NCBI GenBank assembly: GCA_963575745.1
Contig: CAUYUJ010000105.1
Span: 1-64,000, forward strand
From: Prorocentrum cordatum
Taxonomy: Eukaryota
DNA: 64,000 nt
Direction: 5' to 3'
Below the pieces are notes generated by a model. The model was not told where the DNA came from, made no database searches, and worked only from the letters and a program-made list of their open reading frames with translations. Positions within the stretch are counted from its first letter, which is position 1. Each line of letters begins with the position of its first letter. A program made the position numbers and the translations under genes. Below are positions 29,444-54,100 of this stretch, piece by piece.

Positions 29444-29866
29444 AGTTAGATCGAGCAAAACGGCGCCTGCACAGAGCCCCCCAGTGACAGCCCACTCCGA
29501 AAATGCCGCTGGGGCCCTAGCGAGCCGCTGCGACCCCTGCCCGCGGTCGACCGCCATACCTCACGAAAGTTGCATTGCTGTCATTTCCAGAGCAAGGGCC
29601 TGGAAGACGCCCCTGCATTCGCGCACTCACGTGAATCAAAGCACTGGGTCGCCAACCTCCTGCACGCTTGGTGAGAAACGCAATCTTATTCCACATGGTG
29701 GACCAGCACATCGCGCCCCCAATGAGACAGATGAGCCCCCGCAAGAGTTTGGGCCCCTCGTCGCAGAGCTCAAGACGCTGACGCGGTCTGACCTGCTCAA
29801 AGCCAGCGCCTGAGGCGACCTCGAAGACTTCAAACGCGCACACAGCTCATCTAAGGATTATGATCA

Positions 29867-31451
29867 TGGCGAAGAACCCAACCGCATGCAGTTGTGAATA
29901 CCGCCGTTGCGGGCATCGCCTTCGGGGGATCTCCTCACGGGGCCATGACGCATGCGAAAGGTGTGCCGGCGTGGGGCGGGGCCGCCACGCAGGCGCTGCC
30001 ACTGGTGCTTTAGGCGGACCGCGCTACGGACCCGCGACAAGTGCGAGGGGCGCGCCGCAGCGGGGCGGGGCCGTGACTGGGGCTTTCGGCGGGGCTCCCT
30101 ATGGGGCAACAAAACGATGTAATGGGTGGGGAAACGCATGCGAGTACAGCAACCGAGGCCTTCGGCGCAGCCCCCCATGAGGCCACGAAACGCTGTGCTG
30201 GGTGGGGAAACGCATACACACACCGCCACTGGGGTCTTCGTTGGAGCTCCTATGGGGCCACGAAACGCTGCACTGGGCGGGGGTGGCGCATGCGAGTGCG
30301 TCCACTGGGGCCTCCCGTTGAGCTCCCTGTGAGGGGTGACGCATGCGGGCGGCGCCGCTGGGGCCTTCGGCCAGGCCCCCTATGGGGCCAAGAACCGCAA
30401 TACTGGGTGGGTGTGACGCGCGCGGCCGGTGCCACTGAGGCCTCCGGTGGACCTCCCCATGGAGGCACGAAGCGCAACACCGGGCGGGGGTGGCGCATGC
30501 GGGCGGCGTCACTGGAGAGGCCCCATATGGGGCCACGAAACGCTGCACTGGGAAGGGGGCGACGCACGCGGGCGGTGCCACTGGAATCTTCGGCGCGCCC
30601 CCTCTGGGGCCACGAAACGCTGCACTGGGCGGGGGCGACGCATGCAGGCGGTGCCACAGCAGCCTTCGGTGTGCCCCCTATGGGGCCACGAAGCGCTGCC
30701 CTGGGAGGGGGCGACGCATGCGGGCGGTGCCGCTGGGGCCTTCGGTCAAGCTCCCTATGGGGCCGCGAAACGCTGCACTGGGTGGGGGTGACGCACGCGG
30801 GCGGTGCCACTGGGGCCTTCGGCGGGGCTCCGTATGGGGCCACGAAACGTTGCACTGGGTGGGGGACGGCGCATGCGGGCGGTGCCACAGCGGCCTTCGA
30901 TGGAGCCCCCCATGGGTCCACGAAGCGCTGCGCTGGGCGTGGCGGACACACGCGGGCGGTAACACTGGGGCCTTCGGTGGAGCTCCTGGTGGGGCCACGA
31001 AACACTGTATTGGGTGGGATTGACGCATGCGGGCGGTGCCGCTGGGGCCTTCGGTCAAGCCCCCCATGGGGCCGCGAAACGCTGCACTGGGTGGGGGCGA
31101 CGCGTGCCGGCGGCGCCACTGGGGATTTCGGCGGGGCTCCCTATGGGGCCACGAAACGCTGCACCGGGTGGGGGGCGACGCATGCGGGCGGCGCCACTGG
31201 GGCCTTCAGTGGAGCTCCCTCGGGGGCCACGACGCGAAACGTGTAAGGGGTTTGCCGAAATACGCGTGGGTGACGCACGCGGGCGGCGCCGCTGGGGCCT
31301 TCGGTCAAGCCCCCTTATGGGGCCACGAAACGCTGCACTGGGCGGGTGAAACGCAGGGACGAGGGAGGAGGGGAAGGAGGAGGAGAGGAGGAGTGAGGAC
31401 GCGGGGCACTCCCCCTTCAAAACGAGGACCCAACACCACAGGATGATTGGA
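29867..31451 (+). mobile_element. Non-autonomous element with internal ~79-80-bp tandem array (copy 1), inserted in LINE-A
   Basis: Termini TGGCGAAG(A/G)ACCCAACC.CATGCAGTTGTGA and TTCAAAACGAGGACCCAACACC.CAGGATG.TTGG are shared with 41893-43151. Unit core is GGGGCCACGAAACG. Confidence 0.85.
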
Positions 31452-32852
31452 CAAAAAATCTGGCAAAGGCGGCCCCATGCCGTCGGGCCACTGCAGACGA
31501 CCCCCCTCGTCCAACCCTCCAGAACGAATTCCGCCCCTCCGCGAGCAGCTGCATCTCGTGCTGCTGCGAAGCGGGAGCGGCGCGAGTAGCGCCGTCTGCC
31601 TGAACGGCGGGGCCGGAGCACCAGGGGGCGGGGGGCTTGCCGACGGCGCAAACCGCCCCGCCTCCAGCGCCACTGCCCGCGCGGACCCGGGGCCCCCAGT
31701 CCTGGCCACGCTTGCGCTCGGCTGTTTCTTGCTGCAGATCCGCTGATGCGCGAGCGCGAGTGCGCAAAAAACTTACGACTGACCCATCCACGCTGGAAGC
31801 TGACTGCAACAATACGCGCCATCCTCCGACATAGTCTGCAAGCAGCCTGTCTGCAGAGGCGACGCGCTGCCACGAAACCAAATAGCGAGAGCCGAGGCGC
31901 GCGGGTTTAACAGCGCGCGGGGGGCTGTCGCACGACGGCGCCTCGCGGCGAGCGGCGACGCCCGCCCTACGCACTGCTGCTGCTGGTCGTCGGGGACCCA
32001 GTAGATCTCGACGAACTCGCGCTCCATGGTGGAGACGACCTCTGCCCGCGCCGCGCCAACGTCGGGCTACGCCCGGGCACGGGCCGCATACCTGGCAGCC
32101 TCCATGTTCAGCGGCGCGTCGAGGAGAAGGCCTCGCACACGCCCCCATCGAGCGCCCTCCCAGCAGCACCCTGCGGGTCGTGCTCTAGGGAAGAGCTCGG
32201 GCGAACGAACACACGGAAGCTGCGGCGTCTGCTTCGCGCCAACGAGCGAAAGCGAAACCGGCTCGCGGCCCTGCGCGCCCACGGCGCTGAGGACCTGGAT
32301 CAAACTACCGTACTGGAGCCCACTCACTGGACCCACGTAACAATCAAGCACCCGCGGGCCTGCGCCCCGAATGCACGTCGGAATCGACGGAGCTATAAGC
32401 ACCGCCTGCAGCGACCCGGCCCAGCCCGCGCCCTGCAACTCCCCCGGGGTGATGCACCAAACTCCTACCCGCGAGAGACCGCCCCAAACTTGACGAGCAA
32501 GTGCCAATTCAACTGCGACACGCAATGCGAGTCGCGAATATGCACGCTCACGCGCAGGAGCCCGCCCAGGCGCGCCACGGACAGATGCAACAAGCTAATG
32601 CGAGCCGTCTCAGTGCAGAAGCCTTGATCCAGTAACTCTGCCATATCAATACGTCTCGGCTCCAGTTGAAAGAGACCTCCAGCAGCGCCGCCGCTCACCG
32701 CGACCGACGCTGGAAGACCCTTGGCCGACCAGTCCATCATCCTTAGTCGGGCTTCCCAGTCTTGCACCTGCGCCACATGCCCCCGGTGATGCCACTGGAC
32801 ACAGACCGCCGCAGGACTCGAGAATCGGTCGCGCCTCCAACGCCGTAGCGGG

Positions 32853-33888
32853 CTAGGAGCTTGACGCAGCCATGCGATCCCGCTTGGACTGGCGCTCCTG
32901 CACGCGGCGAACGAGGTCCTCGAGCTCGGAGCGACCGATGAGAGCTGCGCCTCGCCTGGACCGACCACCGTCGGAAGCTTCGGATTCACCGCCACCTTCT
33001 CCTTCTTCATCGACAGCCATGGCCTGGGCGGCGACGAAGTCCTTGTAGAACTGGCCTTCGGGGTCAACGAACATAGACCAATCGAGAGGCCCATGGGGCG
33101 CCGCCAGAAGCTGGTGGAACGGACTGCGCCGCCGCTGACGCACCGCCCGCAGCTGTCGCATCGGCTGCCGCAGGCGCGCCTGGCGCGGCGTCGCCCCCAT
33201 TCTCAGATGGCGGCTCGGGGCCCAGCAGTTTGGCTCGGATGGCGTCGGCAAGCTCCTCGAACTGCCGCGCCTCATCGGGCACGGCCGCGCATGGCGCCGC
33301 CGCCATGCACTCGCGCTGCGCCAGCTGCCGGTTGGGGTCGACCTCAGACTTGCCCGCCATGGCGTTGTAGGCCTCGGCGGCCTCGGCTGATGCTGATGCA
33401 GCCTGCTTCTTGAGTAACTCGAGCTGGGTGCGGCAGTTGGCCATGTGCTGCATGGCCTTGACCGCGGCCCCTTGGCTTTTGTCGCAGCGACTCTGAGCTT
33501 GCTCAATCTGATGGCGGAGCGAGTCCGCGGCCTGCCGCGCGGCCTTGGCAACGGAGACTGGGGCACCAGAGTCGAGGGCACGATTCGCCACCACGCGGGC
33601 AATCTGCTTGGCCGACCAGTCGCACGCGAGTTTGTCGAAGTCAGCTGGCGGCATCCGAACATACACCGCGACGAGCTCGTCCGTGAGCTGCTGCTGCGGC
33701 TGCTTGGGCGTCTTGGACGGTGGCCCTTTGGCCCGCGCCCCGCGAACGACACGACGCGGCTTGCCATTGCAGCCTGGCAGGGAGCCGTGAGGAGCTGAGC
33801 CACAGATGCGGCAGCTCGTGCGCCAAGAAATATCGCCTTTGCACCCGCACCTCTTGATAGTGCACGCCCAACAAGAGAAGCCATCCAT
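32853..33888 (-). pseudogene. LINE-A ORF1 (RanBP2-like Zn finger plus coiled coil), one frameshift
   Basis: WACTIKRCGCKGDISWRTSCRICG, followed by an Ala/Gln/Lys-rich helical region; continues in a second frame to the stop at 32853. Confidence 0.7.
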
Positions 33889-34020
33889 CGCACAGGCTTC
33901 GACGGAAGAAAGAATCAAACCACCAAGAAAAACGCGGAACGGTACCGTACACAGAGTGCGTGCGCGCGCACCTGCGCTCGCTGTCGGGACCGCGACGTCC
34001 CCACGCCCAAATGTCAATTA

Positions 34021-34061
34021 CCTGAGCCACCGCTACGGACTTGAGACAAAATGGCTACGGA
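34021..34061 (-). other. Tandem DinoSL relics heading LINE-A
   Basis: TCCGTAGCCATTTTGTCTCAAG (34061-34040, 21/22 match), immediately followed by the degenerate TCCGTAGCGGTGGCTCAGG (34039-34021). Confidence 0.93.
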
Positions 34062-34119
34062 CCCCTCCCCCTCCTCCTCTTCCACCTCCTCCTCCTCCTC
34101 CACCTCCGCCATTGTTTTC

Positions 34120-35000
34120 CTTCTATATAAAAATAACGTTTCCCTGTCGCACCCCTGGGCCAGTTTTTGCAGCGGGCCGCGCGTTTCGCTTTAGACTTCC
34201 TCACCACCCATGACCCTGAAGCTTCAAACTCGACAACAGCTTCACAAATCGAGGGCGGGTGGTTTTCAAAATGTAGTTCTCGCCTCAGCGCCGCGCACAT
34301 TCGTTTTCAAAATGTGCAAAGGTTTCACGGATTGAAGGCGGGTGGTTTTCAAGATGTGGCTCGCGCCTGAGCGCCGCGCACACTCGTTTTCAAAATTTGC
34401 CAGAACTTCACGGATTGAGGGCGGGTGGTTGTCAACATGTGGTTCTCGCCTTAGCGCCGCGCACATTCGTTTTCAAATGTGCGAGAACTATATTCGTTTT
34501 CAAAGTGTGCAAGGCTTTCACGGATTGTAGGCGGGTGGGTTTCAAAATGTGGTTCTTGCCTGAGCGCCGCGCACATTCATTGCCAAGATCTGCAAGAGCT
34601 CCACGGAGTGAGGGCGGCTCTTTTTCAAAATGCGGCTCTAGCCGTAGCGCCGCGCACATTCCCACTTAACTCACGGATTCCCATGAACGACGTACCAGAA
34701 ATCGCGTGTTGGAAGGATTCGCGGTTAATGAGGGCGCAACAGATACGATGATCCGCGGTAGTGAAGTCCCAAACGTGGCGTTCTGGCACAATTCAGGATC
34801 GTCAAGACGCAACGGTCAGGTTTACCCAAGGCGTTGGGATACGTGGAACAATGTTTTGGCATGTTTCAAGGTCTTCCAACGGTTGTCTTCCAACGAGGCA
34901 GGTCCCTCTGTGAAAAAGAACCGCTGAATGTTGCCTATGAAGACGGAGCTTGGAAGGAGGACTTCTTCTGACATCGTTGGTGGCTGTTGGGTGTACACTA
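34120..35000 (-). mobile_element. Dispersed repeat with 83-bp tandem units (copy 2)
   Basis: G(A)GGGCGGGTGGTT at 34251, 34334 and 34417. Inverted homologue of 856-1515. Confidence 0.75.
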
Positions 35001-35003
35001 GTC

Positions 35004-35361
35004 CCCTTCCTCCTCCTCCTCCTCGTCCTCCTCCTCTTCCTCCTCCTCCTCCTCCTCCTCCTCCTCCTCCTCCTCGTCCTCCTCCTCCTCCGCCTCCTCC
35101 TTCTCCTCCTCCGCCTCCCCCTCCCCCTCCCTCTCCGCCTCCGCCTCCGCTTCCGCCTCTACCTCCGCTTCCGCCTCCGTCTCCGCCTCCGACTTATCCC
35201 TCCCCCCGCCTCCTCGTCCTCCTCCTCCTCCTCCTCCTCCTCCTCCTCCGCCTCCTCCTCCTCCTCCTCCGCCTCCTCCTCCTGCTCCTCCTGCTCCTGT
35301 TCCTCCTGCTCCTCCGCCTCCTCCTCCTCCTCCTCCTCCTCCTCCTCCTCCTCCTCCTCAG

Positions 35362-35456
<95 letters not shown>

Positions 35457-35491
35457 ATCATCATCCATCACATCATCATCTCATCATCATC

Positions 35492-35524
<33 letters not shown>

Positions 35525-35639
35525 CATCATCATCATCATCAGCATCATCATCATCATCATCATCATATCATCATCGTCATCGTCATCATCATCTCATCAT
35601 CATCATCTCATCATCATCATCATCATCAGCATCATCATC

Positions 35640-35673
<34 letters not shown>

Positions 35674-35942
35674 TCATCATCACCATCATCAACATCATCA
35701 TCCATCATCATCATCAGCAGCAGCATCATCAGCATCATCATCGTCATCATCAGCATCAGCATCATCATCATCATCAGCAGCATCATCATCGTCATCATCA
35801 TCATCAGCAGCATCAGCAGCATCAGCATCAGCATCAGCATCAGCACCAGCCCCATCATCATCAGCATCATCATCAGCATCAGCATCAACAATATCATCAG
35901 CAGCATTAGCATCATCATCAACATCAGCATCATCATCATCAT

Positions 35943-35978
<36 letters not shown>

Positions 35979-36629
35979 AATCAGTTTCATCATCATCATC
36001 ATCAGCATCAGCATCAGCATCAGCATCATCCTCATCCTCATCCTCATCCTCATCCTCATGCTCCTCCTCTTCCGCCTCATCCTCCTCCTCCTCCTCCTCC
36101 TCCTCCTCCTCCTCTTTCTCCTCCTCGTCCTCCTCCTCCTCCTCCTCTTCCGCCTCCTCCTCCTCCTCATCCGCCTCCGCCGCCGCCTCCGCCTCCGCCT
36201 CCGCCTCCTCCTCCTCATCCTCCTCCTCCGCCTCCTCCACCTCCTGTGTTTCACGTTTCTCCATGCAAGGCCAAACCCCCAACCCGCGAACGAGCGAACA
36301 TCGGGCCCAGTTTAAAGGGAGCGACAGCGGGCCTGGGCGAAGTCGGGGCTGCTGGCCTCCCAGCAGCAACCCGACCCCACCCAAGCTCACGCCAGTCGCG
36401 CTGGGGGGGGGGGGGGAACTCCGACCAAAAGAAGACCTTGCTGGACGGGTGCTTCCCCTCGCGGGGCATCTTGAGGCTCCGCATCACATCTTTATTGTGT
36501 GTGACCGATACACTTGGCAACTAAATACTGCGATCTGCTCATCAGCCTCCCCCTCCTCCTCCTCCTCCTCCACCTCCTCCTCCTCCTCCTCCTCCTCCTC
36601 CGCCTCCGCATCAGCAGCATCCTCATCAA

Positions 36630-36661
<32 letters not shown>

Positions 36662-36662
36662 G

Positions 36663-36706
<44 letters not shown>

Positions 36707-36747
36707 GCATCATCATCATCAGCATCAGCATCACATCACATCATCAG

Positions 36748-36799
<52 letters not shown>

Positions 36800-36846
36800 G
36801 TAATCATCATCATCATCATCATCATAATCATCAGCATCATCATCAG

Positions 36847-36881
<35 letters not shown>

Positions 36882-36888
36882 GCATCAG

Positions 36889-36920
<32 letters not shown>

Positions 36921-38332
36921 GCATCAGCATCATCATCATCATCATCATCAGCATCAGCATCAGCATCATCATCATCATCAGCATCATCAGCATCATCATC
37001 ATCATCGGCAGAATCAGCATCAGCATCATCATAATCATCATCATCATCATCAGCAGCAGCATCATCAGCATCAGCATCAGCATCACATCAGCATCATCAT
37101 CATCATCTCATCATCATCATCATCTCATCATCATCATAATCATTAGCATCCTCATCATCAGCAGCAGCAGCGTCATCAGCATCATCATCAGCATCATCAG
37201 CATCATCACAATCACCATAATCAGCATCAGCATCAGCATCAGCATCAGCGTCATCATCATCAGCAGCATCAGCATCATAATCAGCAGCAACATCAGCATC
37301 AGCATCAGTATCATCATCATCATCACCCTCATCATCAACATCATCAGCGTGTGCAGCATCATCATCGTCATCGGCATCATCAGAATCATCATCAGCGGCA
37401 TCAGTACCAGCATCATCATCCTCATCAGCAACATCATCATCAGCATCATCCTCATCAGCATCAGCGTCGTCATCATCCCCATCATCAGCATCAGCCACAG
37501 CACCCTCGGCATCAGCATCGTCATCATCGTAATCAGAATCACCAGCAGCAGCATCAGCATCATCATCATCGTCGTCGCCATCATCATCAGCATCATCATC
37601 ATCAGCATAATCAGCATCATCATCAACAGCATCATCATCAGCAGCAGCATAGTCATCAGCATTATCATCAGCAGCAGCAGCATCATCATCAATATCATAG
37701 TCAGCAACAGCATCGCCATCGTCATCAGCATCATCAGCCTCATCAGCATCATCATCACCATCATCATTATCAAAGGCATCACCATCATCAGCATCAGTAT
37801 CAGCATCAACGTCATCATCGGCATCAGCATCAGCATCATTAGCCGTATCATCATCAGCCTCGTGATCAGCATCATCAGCAGCATGATCAGCATCATCATC
37901 TTGAGCAGCATCGACATCGGTATCATCATCAGCATCATCATCAAAAGCATCAGCATCATCAGCATGTTCAGCATCAGCATCATCAGCAGCAGCATCATCA
38001 GTATCATCATCAGCATCAGCATCAACATCAGCATCAGCAGTATCCCTCCTCCTCCTCACCCTCCTGGCGATCCTCCTCCTCCCGTTCCTCCTTATCATCC
38101 TCCTCCTCATCCTCCTCATCATCCTCCTCATCCGTCGCCTCCTCCTCCTCACCATTAGCATCATCAGCATCAGCATCAGCATCATGATCATCATCCTCAT
38201 CAGCATCATGATCAGCATCATCAGCATCATAATCATCACCAGAATCAGCATCATCAACAGCAGCATCATCAGCACCGTCATCATCATCAGCATCAGCATC
38301 ATCGTCAGCAGCAGCAGCATCATCATCATCAG

Positions 38333-38397
<65 letters not shown>

Positions 38398-39565
38398 GTA
38401 TCGTTACCATTATCATTATCATCACCAGCAGCAGCATCATCAGAATCATCATCCTTACCATCATCCTCGTCATCATCATCATCAGCATCATCATCGTCCT
38501 CCTCTGCCTCTCCTCCTCCTCCTCTCCTCCTCCCCCTCCTCCTCCTAATCCTCGTTCTCCTCATCCTCCTCCTCCCAATCATTCTCCTCCTCCTGCTCCT
38601 CATCACCGTCATCATCAGCAGCATCATCATCCTACTTCTCCTCCGCCTCCTCCTCCACCTCCTCCTCCTCCTCCTCCTCCTCCTCCTCCTCCCCCCTCCG
38701 TCTCCTCCTCCTCCGCCGCCTCGGGCTTCACCTCTCCTCCTCCTCCTCCTCCTCTCATCCTCCTCCTCCTCCTCCTCCTCCTCCTCCTCCTCCTCCCTCC
38801 TCCTCCTCCTCCTCCTAATCCTCCTCCGCCTCCTCCTCCTCCTCCTCCTCCTACTCCTACTCCTCCTCCTCCCCTCCCCCTCCTCCTCCTCCTCCTCCTC
38901 CTCCTCCTCCTCCACCACCCTCCTCCTCCTCCTCATGCTTCTCCTCTTCCTCCTCCTCCCCCTCCTCCTCCTCCTGCTCCTCCTCCTCCGCAGCAGCAGC
39001 CTCCTCTTCCTCCTCCTCCTCATCCTCCTCCTGCTCCTCATCATCCTCCTCCTCCTCCTCCTCCTCCTCCTCCTCCTCCTCCTCCTCCTCCTCCTGGTGG
39101 CGGCCTTGGGCTGACGGGTGGGGCGGACCAGAGAAGGGAGGGACAAAAAGGGAGCCAGGAGCGGAGGAGGCCCAACACCCAACGGAGCAAGGGCAGGGAA
39201 AGAGAGCCAGCGGGAGAGGGCAGGAGGAGGAAGGAAGGAAGGAAGAAAGGAGGGAGGACCAGCGAAAGAGGCAGAGCACGAGCCAAGGAATAGCAAGGAC
39301 CCAGGACTGTCGCCCTTGCCCCCGGGCAGCACCCACCCAGGGTCAGGAGCGACAGAGCGAAACGATCAGACGCGACAACGACAACGGAGACGGCACAAGA
39401 CGGCAGCAAAACGACAAAACGCACAGACCTCATCCTCCTCCTCGTCGTCCTCCTCCTACTCGTCCTCCTCTTCCTCGTCCTCCTCTTCCTCCTCCTCCTC
39501 CTCCTCCTCCTCCTCCTCCTCCTCCCTCATCATCATCATCATCATCATCATCATCAGCCGCATCA

Positions 39566-39616
<51 letters not shown>

Positions 39617-39648
39617 CATCAGCATCATCATCTCATCAATCATCATCA

Positions 39649-39726
<78 letters not shown>

Positions 39727-39935
39727 TCACATCATCATCATCTCAGCAGCAGCACATCATCATCATCCACCACCATCAACACCATCATCATCATCACCAC
39801 CACCCCCATCGTCATCATCATCATCATCTCATCATCAGCATCATCATCATCATCATCGTCATCATCATCATCATCATCATCATCCTCATCATCATCATCC
39901 TCATCCTCATCATCATCATCCTCCTCCTCCTCCTC
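35004..39935. repeat. ~5-kb compound (CCT)n/(CAT)n/(CAGCAT)n microsatellite field
   Basis: Directly visible, with short unique interruptions at about 36245-36545 and 39095-39430. Confidence 0.95.
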
Positions 39936-41386
39936 CTATCCTTATTCCTTATTAGAATATACTCCTACTCCCCCCTCAGGCCGGCAGATAGCGGGCGCAT
40001 CCGGGTGGTCCCATCCTAACCTGTAAAAAACAATACAAAATCAACATGTTTCTTATTTTTTCCTCTCGACATGGACGTCCTGTCGTCCACGGCGATAATC
40101 CATTGCAAAAAATACCACAAAGAGCACACGCGCGCGTTCATGTCAGAATCCTACCGAACACCGTGTGTTTGCAAGCATTTCAACATAAAAACATCAAAAA
40201 CCCAATGCTTTTTCACAAAAATTGTACAAATTTCCCGCCCGGGCTCTCTTGCTGAAATCATAGGAAAACCATCGGAATCTTAAGAATTCGGTCAAATCCA
40301 GCGATTTCACGTCATCGCGCGGTGCACTCGCGATGCTCTGTCATGCACCCAGGCCGCGAATCCTGTGCAAAAAATACCACGCGGGCGACATGCGCGCGCG
40401 TCGCCGCGAGCGCATGCTCAAATCCTTCTAATCGTCATTGGCACCGTCGCATGGACGTCCTGTCGTCCAGAGCCGGGCTTCCTCCGGCCACCTCTGGCTT
40501 CCTGCGGTGTACCGGGCCATTCTCGACTCGTCTGGCAATGCGTGCGCGGCATTCAACACGCGCTCGCCAGTTCCCGTCGGCAACCGCCATCGCGGCCGCA
40601 TCAGCTGTACCAAACCGGCTGGCCGGTGTGACTTCGGCCCCCAGTTGTGCCAGCTTTGCTTCTTATGTTGTGGGAGGGCGGGTGGGACTGGGCATGCCAT
40701 GCTTGACTCGCTCGAGCTGGCTAGCTTGACTCCTACTCCTACTCCTACTCCTACTCCTCCTCCTCCTTCCCTCCCTCCCTCCCTCCCTCCCTCCCCCCCT
40801 CCCTCCTCCTCCTCCCTCCTCCACCTTCTCCTCATCCTCCTCCTTCTCCTGCTGCTCCTCCTCCTCCACCCTCCTCCTCCTCCTCTTCTTCCTCCTCCTC
40901 CTCCGTCAACTCCACTGGGCGGATGGCGAGAGGAAATGACGAGGCACGAAGAAATTTGTTTGATGACGCTGGCAGGCCGGACGCAGCCATGTGACGTTCG
41001 GTCGTGCCCAATTGTTTTGAACTGTGCTCACACGAGAGCTGGCAACCGAAAAACTTGGGGACGGGGGAAGCAAGATCGAGGAACCCAGGTTCATAAACCC
41101 GGAAAAGGAGAACGAGGATGAAGCCGAGGGCGAGGACACCGAGGGGGAGGCAGACGACGCGGGAGATGGAGAGAACGGCGAGGAGGGGGACCATGAAGCG
41201 GAGGGTGACTGAATATTGTTTGTTCGTGGTGTTGCGTCATGCTCATAACAGCGTGCTTGCCTTTCGTGTCAGGGAGGGAGGCGGAGGCGAAGGACGCGGG
41301 AGATGGGGAGAAGGGCGAGGAGGGGGACCATGAAGCGGAGGGTGACTGAATGTCGTCTCTCGTGGTGTTGCGCTATGCTTATAACA

Positions 41387-43613
41387 ATAACCAACTGCTC
41401 TTGATATGAATCCCCTGGGGGTAATACAGTTCGGGGTCCAGGGAAGGTAATAAACGTTTTCCTGGAGATCTCAGCACTATGATGAAGAGAATGACGATGC
41501 TGATGATAAAGATGATCCTGGACGCTGTATGGAAATCCTTGGAAATCCTTGGAAATCCGTGGAATTCCATCGGAAATCCATAGGATTCCTTCGGATATCC
41601 GTAGGACTCCTCCGGAAATATCCATAGGACTCCTCAGGACTCCTTAGGACATTCATAGGATTCCTTAGGACAGCCTTGGAATTCCTTCGGGAATCCAAAA
41701 AGGATTCCTGCGGAAATCCATGGGGTTCCTTAGGAAATGCAACATCCTGAGGTTTTCTGGGGAAATCCATCGGGCTCCTGAGGGAATACATAGGATTCCG
41801 TGGGAAATCCATAGGAGGAGGAGGAGGAGGAGGACGACGACGACGACGAGGAAACAGAGGACAAGTTTTCCCCCCCCCTCCAAAAAATTAGCCTGGCGAA
41901 GGACCCAACCACATGCAGTTGTGAGCACCGTCATTGTATGCACCGCATTCGGAGGAGCTCTTTGTAGGGCCACGAAACGTGTGATGAATGTGCCAAAATT
42001 TGCCCAGTGGGCGCATGCGAAAGCAGCCAGCTGGGCCGTCGGTGGAATTCCCTATGAAGCCACGAAACGCGTGAGAGGTGTGCCGAAATAGGTGCGATGG
42101 GCGCATGCGAACGCAGCCACTGGGGCCGTGCCGAAATGGGTGCGGTGGGTGCATGCGAACGCAGCCACTGGCGCCTCCGGAGGAGCTCCCTCTGGGGCCA
42201 CGAAACGCGTGAGGGGTGTGCCGAAACGCGCGTGGTTGAGGCATGCGGGCGGTGGCACTGGGGCCTTCGGCGGAGCTCCCTCCCGATGGGGCCACGAAAC
42301 GTGTAAGGGGTGTGACGAAATGGGTGTGGGTGACGCATGCGGGCGGTGACACCGGGGCCATCGTTGGAGTTTCCTATGGGGCCACGAAACGTGTGAGGGG
42401 TGTGCTGGAATGGGCGTGGGTGACGCATGCGTGCGGTGACACCAGGGCCATCGTTGGAGCTCCCTATGGGGCCACGAAACGTGTGAGAGGTGTGACGAAA
42501 TGGGTGTGGGTGACGCATGCGGGCGGTGGCACTGGGACCTGCGGTGGAGCTCCCTATGGGGCCACGGAACGTGTGAGGGGTGTGACGAAATGGGTGTGGC
42601 TGACGCGTGCGGGCGGTGGCACTGGCGCATTCGGTGGAGCTCCTTACGGGGCCACGAAACGCGTGAGAGGTGTGCTGGAATGGGCGTTGGTGACGCATGC
42701 GGGCGGTGGCACTGGGGCTTTCGTTGGAGCTCCGTATGGGGCCACAACACGTGTGAAGGGCGTGCCGAAATGGGTGTGGGTGACGCATGCGGGCGGTGGC
42801 GCTTGGACCTTCGGTGGAGTTCTCTATGGGGCCACGACACGTGTGAGGGGTGTGCCGAAATGGGTGTGGGTGACGCATGCTGGCGGTGGCACTGGGGCCT
42901 TCGGTGGAGCTCCATATGCGGCCACGACACGATTGAGGGGTGTGACGAAATGGCTGTGGGTGACGCATGCGGGAGGTGGCACTGGGGAGTTCGGTGGATC
43001 TCCATATGGGGCCACGAAACGCTGTACTGGGTGGCCGAAGCGCAACGAGGTAGGAGGAGGGGGAGGTGGAGGAGGGGGAGGGAGGAAGGAAGGAGGAGAC
43101 GCGGGGCGCCGTCTCTTCAAAACGAGGACCCAACACCGCAGGATGGTTGGGATGTTTAATCATTTTCTTTGGCACATGTGTAGTAGTTCATGGCGGCCCG
43201 TTCGCTGTTTTTTTTTTTATTTATTTTCTTAATAAACCAAAACAAACAAACAAACAAAAACGGAATAAAAAAAATTGGGGCGGGAGCGCAAGGAGGAGGA
43301 GGAAGAAGATTCCTTCGGAAATCCATGGAATGCCTGAGGAAATACATCGGATTCCTTCGGAAATCCATCGGAATCCTTAGGAAGTCCATGGGATTCCTTC
43401 TGACATCCATCGGAATCCATAGGAAATCAATCGGAAGTCTTGGGAATCCTTGCTACCCAACATAAGAAGAGATCAACTTCGATTCGCAACCTTCCTCCGC
43501 GATTATCAACTTCGGCCTTGCCGCCCCTCTTCCCCGACCAAATCTGCATTGGCCGGGGATAATCAACTTTCAGGGGTTAAGGGGGGGGTGACTTATCGGG
43601 TGGGATTAGGTTA
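41387..43613. mobile_element. ~2.2-kb composite insertion interrupting a 136-bp tandem duplication
   Basis: The intact unit reads ATAACAGCGTGCTTGCCTTTCGTG (~41245). The second unit breaks after ATAACA (41386) and resumes GCGTGCTTGCCTTTCGTG at 43614. The insert ends are TAACC...GGTTA. Confidence 0.7.
41893..43151 (+). mobile_element. Non-autonomous element with internal 90-bp tandem array (copy 2)
   Basis: Same termini as 29867-31451. GGGGCCACG(A/G)AACGTGTGAG recurs every 90 nt. Confidence 0.85.
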
Positions 43614-44497: not shown

Positions 44498-44921
44498 TTC
44501 TCGCTCTCCCTCTCTCTCTCTCTCTCTCTCGCACACCTGCCCGCGCATCCGTGAGACGACCTGCTCGCAAGCCCAGCCGTCAGGCACTCATCACATCGGA
44601 CGGGTAGCCGACAGTGCCATCCGAGCCCAAGTGGCGACGAGGACCCAAGACAGGGCACCGACAGGAGCAAGCACCTTCCGAGACCCGCACGGGTCTCGGT
44701 CTCGGAAGCTACACGCCCCACCCCCGCGGGGACGGCCCGACCCACCCAAGAGCCCAGACCAGGTCTCTCTCTCTCTCTCTCTGTTTCTGTTTCCCTCGCT
44801 CGCAAAAGGCCACCGAAAGGTATTCAAAGAGACCCGTCTGTGCATTAAAGAATCATGTGATCCATGACCAAAAAAAGTTGGCAGAATTGGCCGACAGAAT
44901 GGTGGGATATGTACTTGCGCC

Positions 44922-45690
44922 GGTCGCCCGGTCAGCCGGTCAGTCGGTCAGCTGGTCAGCTGGTCAGCTGGTCAGCCGGTCAACCGGTCATACGGTCAGC
45001 GGGTCGACGGGTCAGCCGGTCAACCAGTCAGCTAGTCAACTGGTCAGCTGGTCAACCAGTCAGCCAATCAGCCAATCAGCCGTTCAGCTGCAAGTCAGCC
45101 GGTCAACCAAACAACCAGTTTGCTGGTCAGCCGGTCAGCCGGTAAGCCCGTCTGCCCGTTAGCCGGTCAGCCCGTCAGCCGGTCAGCCGGTCATCCTCTG
45201 GTCTCCCGGTCAGCCGGTCAACCAGTCTTCTGGCCAATTCGTCAGCAGGTCAACCTGCCAGCCTGTCAACCGGTCAGCTGGTGAACTGGTCAGAAAACGG
45301 TCAGCTCGTCAACCTGTCAGCCAGGCAACTGGTCATCCAGTCAACCAGCTGGCCAGTCAACTGGTCAGCCAATTGCAACCAGTCAACCGGTCAGCCGGTC
45401 AGCCGGTCAGCCGGTCAACCGGTCACCCGGTCACCCTGTCAGCCGGTAAACTGGTCGGCCGGTCAACCAGTCAGCCGGACCCCCGGTCAACCGGTTTTCT
45501 AGTCACCCATGATCTCGAGCACCCACTCAGCCGGTCACCCAGTCAGCCGGATTTCCGGTCACCCGGTCACACGGTCAGCCGGTCAGCCAGTCAGCTGGTC
45601 AGCCGGTCAACTGGTCAGCTGGTCAACAGTTCAGCCGGTCAGCTGGTCAGCCAGTCAACCAGTCAGCTGGTCAGCCAGTCACCTGGTCAC
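44922..45690 (+). repeat. (GGTCAGCC)n 8-bp satellite
   Basis: Directly visible; a second array is at 53510-54100. Confidence 0.95.
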
Positions 45691-46586: not shown

Positions 46587-47172
46587 GGTCCCCTGCTCAC
46601 CAGTGTTCTCGTCCACGGCCAACTGGCTCACCAGTCCAGCAGGAGGAAGCTCAGTATGGGCAGGTGAGGCGAATAACCACATGCCAACGATGAGAAAGCA
46701 TCCCACCCCTTAATCCCTGAGTCATGGTTATGCATGGGCGGGCGGAGCGGCGAGGCCGAACTGTATTACCACGAGGGGGAGTACGAATCGTACATTGATT
46801 CATCTGATCCTGAGTATCCTTCGTTCTCATCATCAGCTTCCTTTTTTGTCATCATAACCCTCTCGTGGACCCCCATTCTGGCACACTCCATCACACGGTT
46901 CGTGGCCCCATGTGGTGCCCCAGTGCTATGCCTGCTATATCGCGTTGAGCATAGACCTCCTCTCCCTCCCCTTATTCCTCCCTCCACGCCCCAGCTGAAC
47001 TTGTTCATCGTCGTCATTGGTTATCACTCCGGATGAGAAACCATGAGTACTCCTACACGACGGGTGGAAAACCATTACGCTACCGAGGAACCCCACATAC
47101 CTAGTTGATGTCCCATGTGTATCATCGGTGCTTCTGCTGCTGCTCCTCCTTCTCCTCTTCGGTGTCCTCCTC

Positions 47173-47344: not shown

Positions 47345-48097
47345 CCCAGCGCACCCCCTGTGGCGTCGAGGACATGCCACGCCTGCCACGCCCTGGGAGC
47401 CTGCAACGCATAGGGCCCCCACCCCCAGCGCACCCCCTGTGGCGTCAAGGAAATGCCACGCCTGCCACGCCCTGGGAGCCTGCAACGCATAGGGCCCCCA
47501 CCCCCAGCGCACCCCCTGTGGCGTCGAGGAAATGCCACGCCTGCCACGCCCTGGGAGCCTGCAACGCATAGGGCCCCCACCCCCAGCGCACCCCTGTGGC
47601 GTCGAGGAAATGCCACGCCTGCCACGCCCTGGGAGCCTGCAACGCATAGGGCCCCCACCCCCAGCGCACCCCCTGTGGCGTCGAGGAAATGCCACGCCTG
47701 CCACGCCCTGGGAGCCTGCAACGCATAGGGCCCCCACCCCCAGCGCACCCCCTGCGGCGTCGAGGAAATGCCACGCCTGCCACGCCCTGGGAGCCTGCAA
47801 CGCATAGGACCCCCACCCCCAGCGCACCCCCTGTGGCGTCGAGGAGATGTCACGCCTGCCACGCTTTGCGAGCCCGAAACGCATAGGGTCCCCTCCCCCA
47901 GCGCACCCCCTCTGGTGTCGAGGAAGTGCCACGCCTGCCACGCTTTGCGAGCCCGAAACGCATAGGGCCCCCACCCCCAGCGCACCCCCTCTGGTGTCGA
48001 GGAAGTGCCACGCCTGCCACGCTTTGCGAGCCCGAAACGCATAGGGCCCCCTCCCCCAGCGCACCCCCTCTGGTGTCGAGGAAGTGCCACGCCTGCT
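47345..48097 (+). repeat. Homogeneous 79-bp tandem repeat, about 9.5 copies
   Basis: CCCAGCGCACCCCCT(C)TG(T)GG(C/T)GTCGAGGAA.TGCCACGCCTGCCACGC recurs every 78-79 nt. Confidence 0.97.
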
Positions 48098-51000
48098 ATG
48101 CCTGGACGACCGTCGTGCATAGCGGCCATATCGGGACGTGTCTCATGTGGGTGCCCACTATGTGGCGCACAAGTCGTGGATGTGTGATGCAGTGAACACG
48201 CCAGGCGCGCACTAGCGTTGTATGGTGTGTGTGTGTTGTGTGCGAATGTGTGCATGCGTGCGGCTGTATGTAGACGCGTGTGTCATGTACTTGCCGTGCA
48301 TGTGATGAGCGCGGGTGAGGAGAGGAAGAAGAGGGTGTGTTGAGCGCGGGTGAGGAGAGGAAGAAGAGGGAGGAGGGGAGGTGTGAGGAGACGCGGGTGC
48401 GCCGCGGCAGGGAAGAAAACCAGAACCCCACGAAACACGTGGGGAATTAAGAATCCATGAGTCTTACAAAGACAATTCGATTGGTAAGAAACTTTGATTC
48501 CTCTCGAAATCTCCTGCTCATCCTCCTCCCTCTCTTCGTGGTCCTCCTCATTATTTTCGTTATCCTCCCCTCCTTCCCTTCCTTTTCTTTGTTTTTCTCT
48601 GACTTCTATTCCTTCACTTCTCTGTTTGCTCCTCATTAGATTCCCCCTCCCTTCATTCCTCCCTCTGCCCCCCAGTTGAACTTTGTTTATCGCCGTCAAT
48701 GTTTATCACCCCCAAAGAGCAGCCATGAGTACTCCCACACGACGAGTAGGGAACGACCATACAAATCGAGTAGAAGTCCCACTCCATCCAGGGAAGGCCC
48801 CGCCAGAACCAAGAGCGAGGATGATTTCTCGGGCCTCGTGATCCTACATCCGTACACCGGACATGCCTACATGCGACTTGCTGGGAAAATCTTCAAATTA
48901 TCCCCCTGGGGGGCCCGAACTTTATTATCCCCATGGTGTGATTATCACCGGCACAGGGTTATGATGGGTGAGGATGGGGAGGAGACGGAGGAGGAAGAAG
49001 GCTTCGATGACGAGGACAAGGCGAATGAGGACCACGAGGTCAGCACGATGACGACCCTGAGGAGGAGAAGGAGGAGGACGAGAAGGAGGAGGAGGTGGAG
49101 GATCAGGTGGAGGACGACATTCAGGAGGGTGAGGATCAGGACGACGAGGAGCAGGAGGCTGAGGATAAGGATGATGAGGGTCAGGACAAGGAGGATCGGG
49201 ATGATCTGTGAGGGAGGGGAGAATGGGCGGGGCCAGCTGATTCCCGAAAGCTGGCAAGATTTACGCCTGCTCTCAATTGCGCGTTCCTTCCCCCACACCT
49301 CGTCCGCATTGGTTACCTGTCATGCCCATTCTTCCCTTTCTCCTTCCACACGGCTTCGCCAGGGTGTGGTTTGTTTATAGGCACAACCTTCGCTGCAGCT
49401 CCTCCTCCCTCGTCCCCCTTTTCTCATCGCCACCCGCCTGCTTCCCTCACCCCAATATCCTTGTCCCCTCCTCCTCGGAGTGGTCCGTTGGTATTCCCTT
49501 GGGTGCATTCGGGTATGTTCTGGAGCCGTTTCGGAGGCAATCGAGAAAAACAACCTCGGGGTCGTCCTGGGCCCTGGTGGGGCAATGTTTGAAGACATTG
49601 GGGCTGCCTTGGTGTCCTCCTGGGGCGCACCACCCCATCCAAACCCGCGGTTTCACATTCATGCCCAATTCTCCCCCCTGCTCCTCATCTGTGGGGTTTC
49701 GCCAGGGCCTGGTCCACTCCTGGGCACAACCCTGGCTGACCTTTCCCCTCGGCCGCCATCCCCCCCTTTTCGCTCGCCCCGCCCGCCCCCCGTTGTTCCC
49801 CATGCTATGGGAGGGCGGGGTGAAATTGGCGGGGCCAGCTGATTGCCAAAAGTTGGCAAAATTCATGCCTCCTCTCAATTGCGTGTTCCTTTTCCATCCC
49901 CGCCGTTTCCATAGTGGTTCGCCGGGCACCTTGTTGCCGCAGGCCAGGCATTTTTTCGCCCAAACCTCACCTTACGTTTTCAAACTGCTTCACTTTCATT
50001 CCCCCCCCCTCCGCGTAAACATGGTCGTGTCCTCGCCGGGTGGTTGTCGAAGGTGTCGTTACGGGCTGGGGTACTCTTAGGTGCAACCCTCGTTTCATTC
50101 CCGCCCCCGTTCATTCCCCCGCACCTCTTCCGCATCCGTCAACTTTCATGCCCCTTCTTCCCTCTATCCTTCCATGTGGTTTCGCCAGGGTGTGGTTTGT
50201 TTGTTTATAGGCACAACCTTTGCTGCAGTTCCTCCTCCCTCGTACCCCTTCTGAGCTCCCTATAAGAACCTCCTGGGAGCCCTCTGAGCTGAGCTGTCTG
50301 GGATCCCTAGAAGAACCTCCTGTGATTCGTGTCCCTCGCAGATTTTTGTTAGGGCTTGTCAGGGCTTCCCAAAGCTTCCTGCGGCCATGAGGGTATCCGG
50401 TGCCATACATGCTGAGAGAGTTTGCGCGCTTCCCTCTCCCAGTACTAATGGGAGCAAATCTTCGCCCGCGGTCACGTCTATATTCCTCACCATCTGTCGT
50501 CGTCCAGTGGACGTGCAGAGCTTGTTGGTGTGCACTGCTGAAATACTTTTCCCGCAAAGCTGCTCGGCTCGGCCGGAGGAGCAGGAGGAGGAAGGGGAGG
50601 AAGAGGGGGGGAAGGGAAACCAGACGGAGGGGGAGTGGAGTAGAAGGACGGGGGAGGACATGGAAGAGGACGAGGAGGAGCAGGCGTTCACAACTCGCAT
50701 CTCGGACGGCATGCTGGCGAAGAGCATCCAGAGAGAGGGAGGAGAGGAGAAGAAGGTCGAGGAAGAAGGTGCCCGTTTCGCGTCCGAGATGTTCACTGGA
50801 GGTGATTTGCCCCGATTCGCTTGGGACATCCCTACAACTCTGGGTTCCAGAATGCGATGCTCGAAGAGTTTTCGCCCGTTGTGCGTGAAGCATCATCTGA
50901 CTTCTGGGTTCCGAGATGCCTTGACCTGAGGTGGTCTGGTCCGTTTGGCTTGGGACATCCCCGAAGGTCTGGTTTCCAAAATGCGGTAGTCGACATGGTC

Positions 51001-53509: not shown

Positions 53510-54100
53510 CAGGTCAGCCGGTCAACCGAAAAGACGGTAATTCAACCCGTCAGCCTGTGAACCAATCAGCTGGTCGACCGGTCAGCCGGTCACCTGGTCA
53601 GAATAGTAGCACGGTCAACACGGTCAGCCCAGTCAGCTGGTCAGCCAATCACCTGGTGAACCAATCAGCCGGTCAGCCGATCAGATTGTTTAACCCATGG
53701 CTTAACCACCTCACCGGCTGACCAGCTGACCGTTTGACCAATGACTGGTCATTCGGTCACGTCAAAAGTCAAACGGTCAGCCGTTCGGCCAGTCAGCCGG
53801 TCAGCCAGCTAGCCGGTCCGCCAGCTAGCCGGTCAGCCGGTCAGCCAGTCAACCGGTCAGCCAATCAACCGGTCAGCCGGTCACCCAGTCAGCCAGTCAA
53901 CTGGTGACTGGTCAGCCAATCAACCAGTCAGCCGCTTAGCCAGTCAGCTGGTCAACAGGTCAACTGCTCAGCCAGTGGCCTCGTCAACCTGTCAGCTGGT
54001 CGAACGGTCAGCCGGTGAGCAGGTCAACAAATCAACTGGTCAGCCGGTGAAACGTTAAGCCCGTCAGCCCGTCAGCCGGTCAACTGGTCAGTCGGGTCAA
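53510..54100 (+). repeat. (GGTCAGCC)n 8-bp satellite
   Basis: Directly visible. Confidence 0.9.

What the first reader, a model, noticed from the sequence alone, without database searches (positions are those of the whole stretch)
29867..43151. Non-autonomous element family with fixed termini but swappable 79- versus 90-bp internal arrays
Seen: copies at 29867-31451 and 41893-43151 share both ends and a repeat core, but one amplified a ~79-80-bp variant and the other a 90-bp variant. Each keeps a unit of the other type near its 3' end (~31225 and ~43010). Both termini contain ACCCAAC in direct orientation, and the 3' end can form a CCCAAC...GTTGGG hairpin. No TSD is evident. Inference: a Helitron/Helentron-type rolling-circle element that seeds satellites.
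Basis: partly seen in the sequence, partly recalled or inferred. Interest (0 to 1): 0.5.

Follow-up and report, generated by a model that had tools for sequence, protein, structure and literature searches.

The report
Hairpin-ended repeat-carrying transposon family, dinoflagellate-type DNA
The two blocks are copies of a very abundant, non-coding mobile element that carries its own variable stretch of short tandem repeats; it is laid out like the small partners of rolling-circle (Helentron) transposons, which shows how such a huge genome fills with repeats.

Summary
Copies A (about 29863-31451) and B (about 41887-43152) share both ends at about 80% identity. A holds 75-78-bp units and B holds 90-bp units. 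The "swap" is not a swap. A third copy from a metagenome (L003) holds both unit types plus an intermediate, in a fixed order, and 90 = 77 + a 13-bp insert. The family is genome-wide: 38,642 contigs of one public run match it. Summed depth is 10^3-10^5 inside the element against 0-190 outside. The right end is sharp and is followed by A-rich DNA. Canonical Helitron marks are absent (5' TC, 3' CTRR, A|T site). Read on the minus strand, the layout is that of DINE-1/HINE, the non-autonomous partners of Helentrons: a T-run, a 9-bp subterminal inverted repeat with a nearby complementary repeat, a microsatellite, a variable spacer, central tandem repeats, the second inverted repeat and a short tail. 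No target duplication was detected. Head-to-tail pairs are frequent. Three weak points remain: the inverted repeat is only 9 bp, the 3' stem-loop is unconvincing, and no Rep/helicase partner could be sought because no genome is held. An A-tailed retroposon (SVA-like) remains a serious rival. Best reading 0.5. New variant of a known kind. Interest moderate.

The parts
29863..29933 (-). It is the 3' flank (RF) on the minus strand and holds ACCCAAC (29876-29882), a decayed copy of the second subterminal inverted repeat.
   Evidence: 80.6% identical to 41894-41960. The conserved start ATC..TGGCGAAG was inferred from protein-level 5' junctions.
29934..31356 (-). Copy A, central tandem repeats. Degenerate units come first. 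Then 14 insert-less units (12 of 75-78 bp, one fused 130, one 68), one 96-bp insert-bearing unit (31226-31321), and a final partial 77-type unit (31322 ff).
   Evidence: TRF rows 30076-30282 and 30333-31232; unit split and typing.
31357..31397 (-). Copy A, purine-rich GGA-type microsatellite ((TCC)n on the minus strand).
   Evidence: Sequence. The same tract sits at the same place in B, L003 and L004.
31398..31451 (-). Copy A, conserved 54-nt end module. It is the 5' flank (LF) on the minus strand. The hairpin is decayed (ATTGGA for GTTGGG).
   Evidence: nhmmer with a model of four modules, E 6e-18; fold -1.9 kcal/mol.
31452..31469 (.). Flank of copy A: CAAAAAATC followed by TGGCAAAGG. The latter repeats the first 9 bases of the family's other end with one mismatch.
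   Evidence: Sequence. A local alignment test of the whole flank was not significant. Head-to-tail pairs in relatives are shown.
41887..41960 (-). Copy B, left end (RF on the minus strand): ATTAGC CTGGCGAAGG ACCCAACCACATGCAG. It holds the second subterminal inverted repeat.
   Evidence: In X1 the base at 41912 is T in contigs making up 102,321 of 105,566 summed depth, which gives CCCAACCAT. Its translation ISLAKDPT recurs in 6 of 6 new proteins.
41969..43046 (-). Copy B, central tandem repeats: 11 insert-bearing units (nine of 90 bp, one 94, one 138), then a final partial 77-type unit at 43011 ff.
   Evidence: TRF 42128-43021, period 90 x9.9, 84% matches.
43047..43097 (-). Copy B, GGA-type microsatellite ((TCC)n on the minus strand).
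   Evidence: TRF 43047-43086; alignment.
43098..43152 (-). Copy B, conserved end module (LF on the minus strand): GACGCGGGGCGCCGTCTCTTCAAAACGAGGACCCAACACCGCAGGATGGTTGGG(A). Hairpin arms are 43129-43134 and 43146-43151.
   Evidence: nhmmer E 3e-20; fold -4.9 kcal/mol. 127 contigs of X1 leave the reference at 43152 and go on with an A-run.
46871..46906 (-). Solitary, decayed fragment of an insert-bearing unit of the same family, in the opposite orientation.
   Evidence: The only nhmmer hit of 32 that lies outside A and B (E 0.0024); sequence.

Best explanation
A and B are old copies (about 20% apart) of one very high-copy, non-coding DNA transposon family built like DINE-1/HINE elements, the non-autonomous partners of Helentron rolling-circle transposons. 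On the minus strand a copy reads in this order. First a short T-run. Then the 5' subterminal inverted repeat CCCAACCAT. Then 11 nt and the complementary repeat GTTGGG, which together make a small terminal hairpin. Then about 35 nt of conserved core, a (TCC)n microsatellite that varies between copies, 1 to 16 tandem units of 77 or 90 bp, the second inverted repeat ATGGTTGGG, about 17 conserved bases (TCCTTCGCCAG..GAT) and again T/A-rich DNA. Inferred, not shown: a Rep-helicase enzyme encoded elsewhere nicks at these ends, moves one strand, and puts it into T-rich DNA without duplicating the target. Because each copy is bordered by T-runs, and perhaps because targets resemble the element's own ..GAT|T end, new copies often land beside old ones and give head-to-tail pairs. 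The 77 versus 90 difference is not a cassette swap. The 90-bp unit is the 77-bp unit plus a 13-bp insert. The ancestral array held both in a fixed order (77-type, hybrid, 90-type, one last 77-type unit), and unequal exchange or slippage expanded different parts in different lineages.
For: The family is real and sharply bounded. 38,642 of 6,054,007 contigs of run X1 lie on 41600-43500 at 80% likeness or more. Summed depth is 1.5e3-6.8e5 in bins 41856-43199, against 2.5 just left and 0 just right. 127 contigs leave the reference at 43152 and continue with an A-run. Copies with unrelated flanks are L003 and L001/L004.

The layout follows the published order of parts (passages read). The end module, microsatellite, array and other end appear in A, B and L003. 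The microsatellite zone varies ((ATG)n, (GAY)n and GGA-type tracts in P0002, P0004, P0007, P0008, P0010, P0014). The inverted 8-mer between B's ends is reached by 55 of 5000 shuffles, and it becomes 9 bases with the X1 majority base at 41912. The complementary repeat lies 11 nt from the inverted repeat.

The borders are A/T-rich. In all 4 DNA-level junctions the base after GGTTGG(G) is A. In 15 of 15 protein-level junctions from the searches not biased towards junctions, the first codon after GWLG/GWFG is I, K, N, T, Q, E or M.

No target duplication was found. The flank-versus-flank tests in A and B were reached by 1628 and 1867 of 2000 shuffles. The flanks of P0019 were reached by 14105 of 20000.

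The same end module heads a different body in L004: a relic spliced leader plus a 236-aa ORF on the same strand. Gene capture by read-through would produce this.

Head-to-tail pairs appear in P0013 (1 clear of 15 unbiased junctions) and in P0018, P0024, P0025, P0028-P0031 and P0037 (junction-biased searches).

The array history rests on L003. It holds 5 insert-less units, 3 hybrids and 6 units of 89-90 bp with the TGTGAGGGGT linker, then the last 77-type unit. Core identity within copies (0.75-0.82) barely exceeds that between copies (0.73-0.75). Array length ranges from 1-3 units (P0019, P0027, P0032) to 15 whole units plus a partial one (A).
Against: The inverted repeat is 9 bp, against 11-15 in described HINEs. 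In A it has decayed to chance level. The stem-loop expected between the second inverted repeat and the 3' end is not supported: B z = -0.02, A z = +0.26. The terminal hairpin is weak too (B: 40 of 200 shuffles fold as well). No Rep/helicase gene could be linked. No genome is held, and Pfam found nothing meaningful in 20 long ORFs of the window (only one weak sub-threshold DUF4031 hit, E 0.0035, 18 bits against a cut-off of 25.6). The A-rich stretch is longer on one side (about 5-24 nt after GGTTGGG; X1 consensus of 10 A) than on the other (0-6 nt). That asymmetry fits an A-tail better. With copies 20% diverged, a short duplication could go unseen. Protein-level junctions come from ORF calls on metagenome contigs, give only degenerate nucleotides, and those were selected by a query that spans a junction.
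Confidence: 0.5

Rival explanations
1. A-tailed non-autonomous retroposon read on the plus strand, comparable to SVA. It would have a fixed 5' end, a VNTR, a GGA microsatellite, and a 54-nt 3' module whose terminal stem-loop is recognised by a LINE reverse transcriptase, followed by an A-rich tail. New copies would often land in the tails of old ones.
For: 127 X1 contigs continue after 43152 with a consensus of about 10 A. A-rich stretches follow the end in A, L003 and L004 and run to about 24 nt in P0027. The 3' module occurs behind unrelated upstream sequence, as 5'-truncated copies would (P0002-P0004, P0010, P0014, L004). Head-to-tail pairs have A-rich spacers of 0-20 nt. Earlier scan notes report several LINE families in this genome (unchecked).
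Against: No target duplication appears in A, B or P0019. Pure A-runs are short, 1-7 nt, in the junctions seen. In A the 3' flank goes straight from the A-rich stretch into TGGCAAAGG with no second tail. The inverted-repeat relation of the two ends has no role in this model. Both ends have similar summed depth in X1, so there is no strong 5' truncation. No tRNA, 5S or 7SL likeness was found.
Confidence: 0.27
2. A cut-and-paste element with tandem repeats inside (a tandem-repeat-containing MITE), moved by a DDE transposase through its inverted repeats.
For: Short inverted repeats lie near both ends. The element is non-coding and high-copy and carries central repeats.
Against: The inverted repeat is subterminal at one end: 17+ conserved bases lie outside it in A, B and 6 of 6 proteins. 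No flanking duplication was found. Only 9 bp match.
Confidence: 0.08
3. Not mobile: a local segmental duplication, or pieces of a long-period satellite.
For: The two copies lie 12 kb apart on the same strand. Head-to-tail pairs exist.
Against: No other similarity at the 12-kb offset appears in the window self-comparison. Flanks differ in A, B, L003 and L004. Tens of thousands of contigs share the same sharp end.
Confidence: 0.03

Closest known systems
Cg_HINE elements of the Pacific oyster (PMC7492417; passages read)
   Same: Both are non-coding and dispersed in very many copies. The left flank holds a subterminal inverted repeat, a complementary repeat and a microsatellite. Then come a variable spacer, a central array of satellite-like units always in the same orientation, and a short conserved right flank with the second inverted repeat. 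Both have T-rich insertion sites and no duplication. Related elements share flank modules but differ in their repeats.
   Different: The inverted repeat is 9 bp here, against 11-12. The palindrome in the right flank is not supported. The microsatellite is (TCC)n rather than GTCY-type. The array holds two ordered unit types that differ by a 13-bp insert. The host is dinoflagellate-type DNA, not an animal.
DINE-1 of Drosophila and HINEs of mites and mosquitoes, partners of Helentrons (PMC4067079; passages read)
   Same: There is a 5' subterminal inverted repeat with an inverted repeat 3-22 bp away whose 5' arm lies within it. A microsatellite, optional central repeats and a 3' subterminal inverted repeat follow. 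Strings of T at the borders vary in number. Copy number is very high.
   Different: DINE-1 has 13-bp repeats and a clear 3' stem-loop, and its autonomous Helentrons are known. Here the second repeat is about 20-25 nt from the end (38-60 in mites), and no partner was seen.
SVA (SINE-VNTR-Alu) of hominids (PMC3287187; start of abstract in a search listing only; the rest recalled)
   Same: It is a composite non-autonomous element with a simple repeat, a central VNTR of variable length and an A-rich 3' end.
   Different: SVA has target duplications, a true poly(A) tail and parts of known origin (recalled). None of these was found here.
Canonical Helitrons (HLE1) (PMC11417382; passages read)
   Same: Both lack a duplication, have a hairpin near one end and carry foreign sequence.
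   Different: There is no 5' TC, no CTRR after the hairpin, and no A|T site.

Membership tests
Helitron proper (HLE1) | 5' end TC and 3' end CTRR preceded by a hairpin | tested here: not met
   The plus strand starts AT(C/T)..CTGGCG and ends ..GGTTGGG. The minus strand starts (T)CCCAACC and ends ..GCCAG..GAT. Criteria.
Helitron proper (HLE1) | Insertion between A and T | tested here: not met
   On the plus strand the base after the element is A in 4 of 4 DNA junctions, not T. The bases before the element differ.
HINE / DINE-1-like (non-autonomous Helentron, HLE2) | Subterminal inverted repeats of 11-15 bp | tested here: not met
   8 bp in B (55 of 5000 shuffles reach it), 9 bp with the X1 majority base at 41912, 5 bp in A. 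Present but shorter than the family criterion.
HINE / DINE-1-like (non-autonomous Helentron, HLE2) | Short inverted repeat 3-22 bp from the 5' subterminal repeat | tested here: met
   CCCAAC .. 11 nt .. GTTGGG at 43129-43151. The same is seen in L003 and L004. Thermodynamically weak (z -0.9 to -2.4).
HINE / DINE-1-like (non-autonomous Helentron, HLE2) | Microsatellite in the left flank, variable spacer, central tandem repeats in one orientation | tested here: met
HINE / DINE-1-like (non-autonomous Helentron, HLE2) | Palindrome or stem-loop between the 3' subterminal repeat and the 3' end | tested here: inconclusive
   Only a 3-bp stem (CCT TCGCC AGG) is predicted in B. Energy is no better than shuffles (z -0.02 in B, +0.26 in A).
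HINE / DINE-1-like (non-autonomous Helentron, HLE2) | T-rich / TT insertion site, no target duplication | tested here: inconclusive
   The T-run at the minus-strand 5' border is seen in 127 X1 contigs and 4 of 4 DNA junctions. The other border is only weakly T-rich. No duplication was found, but the copies are old and no empty site was available.
HINE / DINE-1-like (non-autonomous Helentron, HLE2) | Autonomous Helentron (Rep-helicase, with or without endonuclease) with the same ends | not testable with these tools
   No genome is held, the collections scanned hold too few copies, and Pfam found nothing meaningful in the window's long ORFs.
SINE / SVA-like retroposon | Poly(A) or A-rich tail plus flanking target duplication | tested here: inconclusive
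   An A-rich stretch is present. No duplication was detected.
SINE / SVA-like retroposon | Head derived from tRNA, 5S or 7SL, or a tail shared with a LINE | tested here: not met
   Rfam gave 0 hits at gathering and only E>0.9 noise at relaxed thresholds. ARAGORN gave 0. The LINE tail was not testable.
Cut-and-paste MITE | Terminal inverted repeats directly flanked by a duplication | tested here: not met
   The repeat is subterminal at one end and there is no duplication.

The most novel reading that the evidence does not exclude
A lineage of rolling-circle-type elements specific to dinoflagellate-type genomes whose enzyme picks targets that look like the element's own end (..GAT followed by T-run). 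Copies would therefore dock head to tail and build higher-order arrays, while each copy carries an expandable minisatellite and microsatellite. At 10^4 copies or more, this family would be a main engine of the tandem-repeat load of a multi-gigabase genome. It could also pick up spliced-leader-bearing retrogenes, as in L004, linking the retrogene recycling of these organisms to DNA-level transduction.
Probability: 0.15. Interest if true: 0.65.

Novelty: new variant of a known kind. Interest (0 to 1): 0.45.

Why it matters
Dinoflagellate-type genomes are huge and repeat-laden, and their transposons are largely unclassified. This family gives a concrete, sharply bounded, very high-copy element whose anatomy points to the Helentron/HINE way of moving. 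It shows how one element can spread both a minisatellite and a microsatellite to tens of thousands of places. It also offers clean terminal probes (a 54-nt module and a roughly 30-nt other end) with which the autonomous partner, the insertion rule and the share of the genome can be determined once an assembly is at hand. My searches listed no paper describing such elements in dinoflagellates, and the HELIANO survey text does not mention them.

Tried and rejected
Whole genome: none is held.

RNA families: Rfam gave 0 at gathering thresholds for the window. For A and B at relaxed thresholds it gave only noise (E 0.95-3.8). I looked by eye for a hammerhead-like core and found none. tRNA scan: 0.

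Pfam: nothing in 20 long window ORFs except one weak sub-threshold hit (DUF4031, E 0.0035, 18 bits against a cut-off of 25.6). That includes those across the arrays, and the L004 ORF also gave nothing. The open frames over the arrays are what GC-rich repeats give.

Collection scans: genome contigs gave 0 with the end 22-mer and 0 with a unit 22-mer. Viral contigs gave 0.

L002: this fourth metagenome hit is a bacterial contig (HipA, GmrSD). Its 22-base match is taken as chance and dropped from all counts.

Sequencing runs: no RNA holder listed. X2 had no contig and X3 one contig on the stretch.

Target duplication, or a second copy's start, in the flanks of A, B, L003 and L004: not significant (833, 1104, 1584, 1962, 1628 and 1867 of 2000 shuffles reach the scores). 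The apparent KQRF../KRF.. flank repeat of P0019 is not significant either. Similar faint flank likeness in P0027 and P0032 was not pursued, because frames need not agree.

Spliced-leader likeness of the 13-bp insert: GCCAAAATGG is the complement of the leader's core (recalled motif). It occurs exactly in 3 L003 units (28 of 3000 shuffles). B shares only an 8-mer (780 of 3000) and A nothing. This is a weak lead only.

One search hits P0026, P0033, P0035, P0036 and P0039 are other tandem-repeat proteins whose scores add up over repeats. P0033 is clearly unrelated. P0034 and P0040 were not inspected. None was counted.

The 79-bp array at 47345-48096 is also followed by a GGA tract on the minus strand. 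The unit model gave no hit there, so it is treated as another family.

Earlier scan notes: none lies near the finding or resembles it.

Full report
Setting. The window is GC-rich (60% G+C) and packed with micro- and minisatellites (168+ TRF rows). Pfam found no meaningful domain in 20 long ORFs; the only hit was a weak sub-threshold DUF4031 match. No whole genome is held. Earlier notes of this scan call the same genome a dinoflagellate, and one names Prorocentrum (unchecked). In keeping with that, the window's minus strand carries relics of the dinoflagellate spliced leader (motif recalled): 34040-34060 with 20 of 21 bases and 7710-7730 with 18 of 21. Five related ORFs in the protein collection bear a source name of a green alga. 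I cannot resolve that conflict.

The observation. The two blocks are real. Their left ends match at 80.6% over 67 bp and their right ends at 80.8% over 99 columns. Between the ends lie arrays of period 77 (A) and 90 (B). Cutting at the conserved GCCACGAAACG anchor gives the unit lists. A has 14 insert-less units (12 of 75-78 bp) and then one 96-bp insert-bearing unit at 31226. B has 11 insert-bearing units. Both copies close with a partial unit that has the 77-type linker, then a GGA-type tract, then a 54-nt module. The module is almost invariant in A, B, L003 and L004. The units share a core of about 63 bp. The 90-type differs by a 13-bp insert (GTGCCRAAATGGG) and a changed linker (TGTGAGGGGT for CTGCACTGGG). 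ACCCAAC stands in direct orientation at both ends, and the right end can pair CCCAAC with GTTGGG. The pairing is modest: -4.9 kcal/mol in B with 40 of 200 shuffles as good, -5.6 in L004 with 5 of 200, and broken in A.

The family beyond the window. A scan of metagenome contigs with 22 bases of the end module gave four loci. L002 is bacterial and was dropped as a chance match. L003 is a third member, cut about 25 bp inside its left end. It holds five 76-77-bp units, three hybrids (77-type linker plus the insert), six 89-90-bp units, the closing 77-type unit, the GGA tract and the module, followed by unrelated flank. So the two unit types are not exchangeable cassettes. They are neighbours in one ancestral array, joined by an intermediate form, and A and B are differently expanded or shrunk versions of it. 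Core identity within a copy (0.75-0.82) is hardly above that between copies (0.73-0.75). The arrays are therefore old and were not blown up recently in place. L001/L004 (one locus seen twice) carry the same GGA tract and module behind a different body: a relic spliced leader and a 236-aa ORF, both on the minus strand.

Abundance and borders. One public run (X1, kept as contigs) holds part of the region. Laid at 80% likeness on 41600-43500, 38,642 of its 6,054,007 contigs match. Summed depth is 1.5e3 to 6.8e5 in the bins from 41856 to 43199, against 2.5 in the bin before and 0 in the bin after. The tool warns that this is no copy number. At 43152, 127 contigs leave the reference, and the consensus of what follows starts with about ten A (overall agreement 0.36). 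At 41912 nearly all depth reads T where B has C. No loose-end row for the left border was among those shown, and part of that flank was masked as repeat. The left border therefore rests on A, B and the protein-level junctions.

Junctions from ORF calls. The module is open in all frames, so gene callers have produced small 'proteins' across it on metagenome contigs. These ORFs are not evidence of coding. Searching with the L004 frame (..RGAVSSKRGPNTTGWLG..) gave 4 of 4 and 12 of 69 candidates. Fifteen of these are junctions independent of the query locus. In all 15 the first codon after GWLG/GWFG is I, K, N, T, Q, E or M, which means A/T-rich DNA with an A bias. Pure A-runs can be at most 1-7 nt.

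One of the 15 (P0013) runs from the module, after K-I-S, straight into LAKDPTICSCE, which is the translation of the family's other end, and then into units. That is a head-to-tail pair. Two more (P0010, P0011) have a partial ..AK.. at the same spacing. Searches with that junction (biased towards junctions by design) added eight more pairs with spacers of 0 to about 20 A-rich bases (P0018, P0024, P0025, P0028-P0031, P0037). They also added six left-end junctions with unrelated upstream sequence (P0019, P0020, P0022, P0023, P0027, P0032).

These junctions move the conserved left border to I-S-L-A-K-D-P-T, that is AT(C/T) (TCN/AGC) CTG GCG AAG GAC CCA ACC. That places it at about 41887 in B and 29863 in A. 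P0019, P0027 and P0032 are whole short copies with one to three units, so unit number ranges from about 1 to 16. In copy A the right flank reads CAAAAAATC TGGCAAAGG, which is again the start of the other end.

What it is. No target duplication was found in A, B or P0019, but the copies are about 20% diverged. Canonical Helitron marks are absent on both strands (criteria). Read on the minus strand, the order of parts is the one published for DINE-1 and HINEs:
- a string of T at the border;
- a subterminal inverted repeat (CCCAACCAT) with a complementary repeat 11 nt away, whose 5' arm lies inside it;
- a conserved core;
- a microsatellite that varies between copies;
- a variable spacer;
- central tandem repeats, always in the same orientation;
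- the second inverted repeat (ATGGTTGGG, 9 of 9 with the majority base at 41912);
- a short conserved tail, and again A/T-rich DNA.

The complementary repeat of the left flank and the second inverted repeat share the 10-mer GTTGGGTCCT. It is what the DINE-1 design predicts. A shared end module on different bodies (L004) and very high copy number also fit.

Against membership stand three facts. The repeat is 9 bp rather than 11-15. The expected 3' stem-loop is no better than shuffled sequence. No Rep-helicase partner could be looked for. I therefore say it works like a HINE, at 0.5, without filing it as a proven member.

The main rival (0.27) is an A-tailed retroposon read on the plus strand. 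The A-rich stretch is longer on the right side than on the left. The module occurs behind unrelated sequence, as in 5'-truncated copies. Landing in old tails would also give head-to-tail pairs. Against it count the missing duplication, the short pure A-runs, the absence of a second tail after A's partial repeat, the inverted-repeat design of the ends, and the similar depth of both ends in X1. A cut-and-paste MITE (0.08) fails on the subterminal position of the repeat. A mere local duplication (0.03) fails on the unrelated flanks.

Unexplained. Three of four DNA-level right flanks end their A-rich stretch in ATC (A, B, L003). Nine of 18 protein-level right flanks have an Ile codon within three codons. 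ATC is also the first triplet of the other end. This may mean that targets resemble the element's own end, or that many copies once had a neighbour. With A-rich composition the excess is only borderline by my estimate, so I leave it open.

Literature. I read passages of PMC11417382, PMC7492417, PMC4067079 and PMC10666404. For PMC3287187 I saw only the listing. Six searches listed no description of such elements in dinoflagellates. Subscription journals and Repbase were not searchable.

Noticed in passing
window 813-1545 (+) and 34085-35043 (-): A second dispersed family: about 330 bp of unique sequence, an 83-bp tandem array (2.4 units in one copy, five or more in the other) and about 130 bp more, bounded on both sides by GGA-type microsatellites, 76% identical overall. 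It has the same general habit as the studied family (minisatellite inside, microsatellite beside).
   Followed up: partly
window 34040-34060 (-) and 7710-7730 (-): Relics of the dinoflagellate spliced leader (motif recalled): 20 of 21 and 18 of 21 bases. The first sits directly behind the GGA tract that closes the second family's copy.
   Followed up: partly
L004 1104-1889 (-), same locus in L001: A relic spliced leader (TCCGTAGTCATTTTGACTCAGG) and a 236-aa ORF with no Pfam match lie about 105 nt behind the (TCC)n tract of a family-type end module, on the same strand. This is either a retrogene captured by the element or one sitting beside it.
   Followed up: partly
window 47345-48096 with 46961-47065 and 48642-48747: A young 79-bp array (x9.5, 96% matches), followed on the minus strand by GGA and GCA microsatellites. 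The 1.6-kb block is flanked by direct repeats of about 106-150 bp (81%). It is unrelated to the 77/90-bp units by the unit model.
   Followed up: partly
window 41530-41816 and 43308-43436: A 21-bp tandem repeat (GGAAATCCATAGGATTCCTTA) lies on both sides of copy B. B and about 70 + 156 bp of GGA-rich and AT-rich DNA interrupt it.
   Followed up: no
window 35358-39942, 19555-20339, 44919-45689 and 53566-54095: Very long simple repeats: about 3.1 kb of (TCA)n followed by (TCC)n, an 8-bp array TAGGGCTA x98, and 8-bp GCCGGTCA-type arrays at two places that match each other.
   Followed up: no
proteins P0002-P0005, P0007: Five ORFs holding the family's end module carry a source name of the green alga Pyramimonas, whereas the window has dinoflagellate spliced-leader relics. 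This may be a labelling or contamination question in that source.
   Followed up: no
L003 units at 430-1234 of the reverse strand; window 42130, 42764, 42854 (-): The 13-bp insert that makes the 90-bp unit contains GCCAAAATGG, the complement of the spliced leader's CCATTTTGGC core. It is exact in 3 L003 units (28 of 3000 shuffles) and one base off in B. Weak, and found after the fact.
   Followed up: yes
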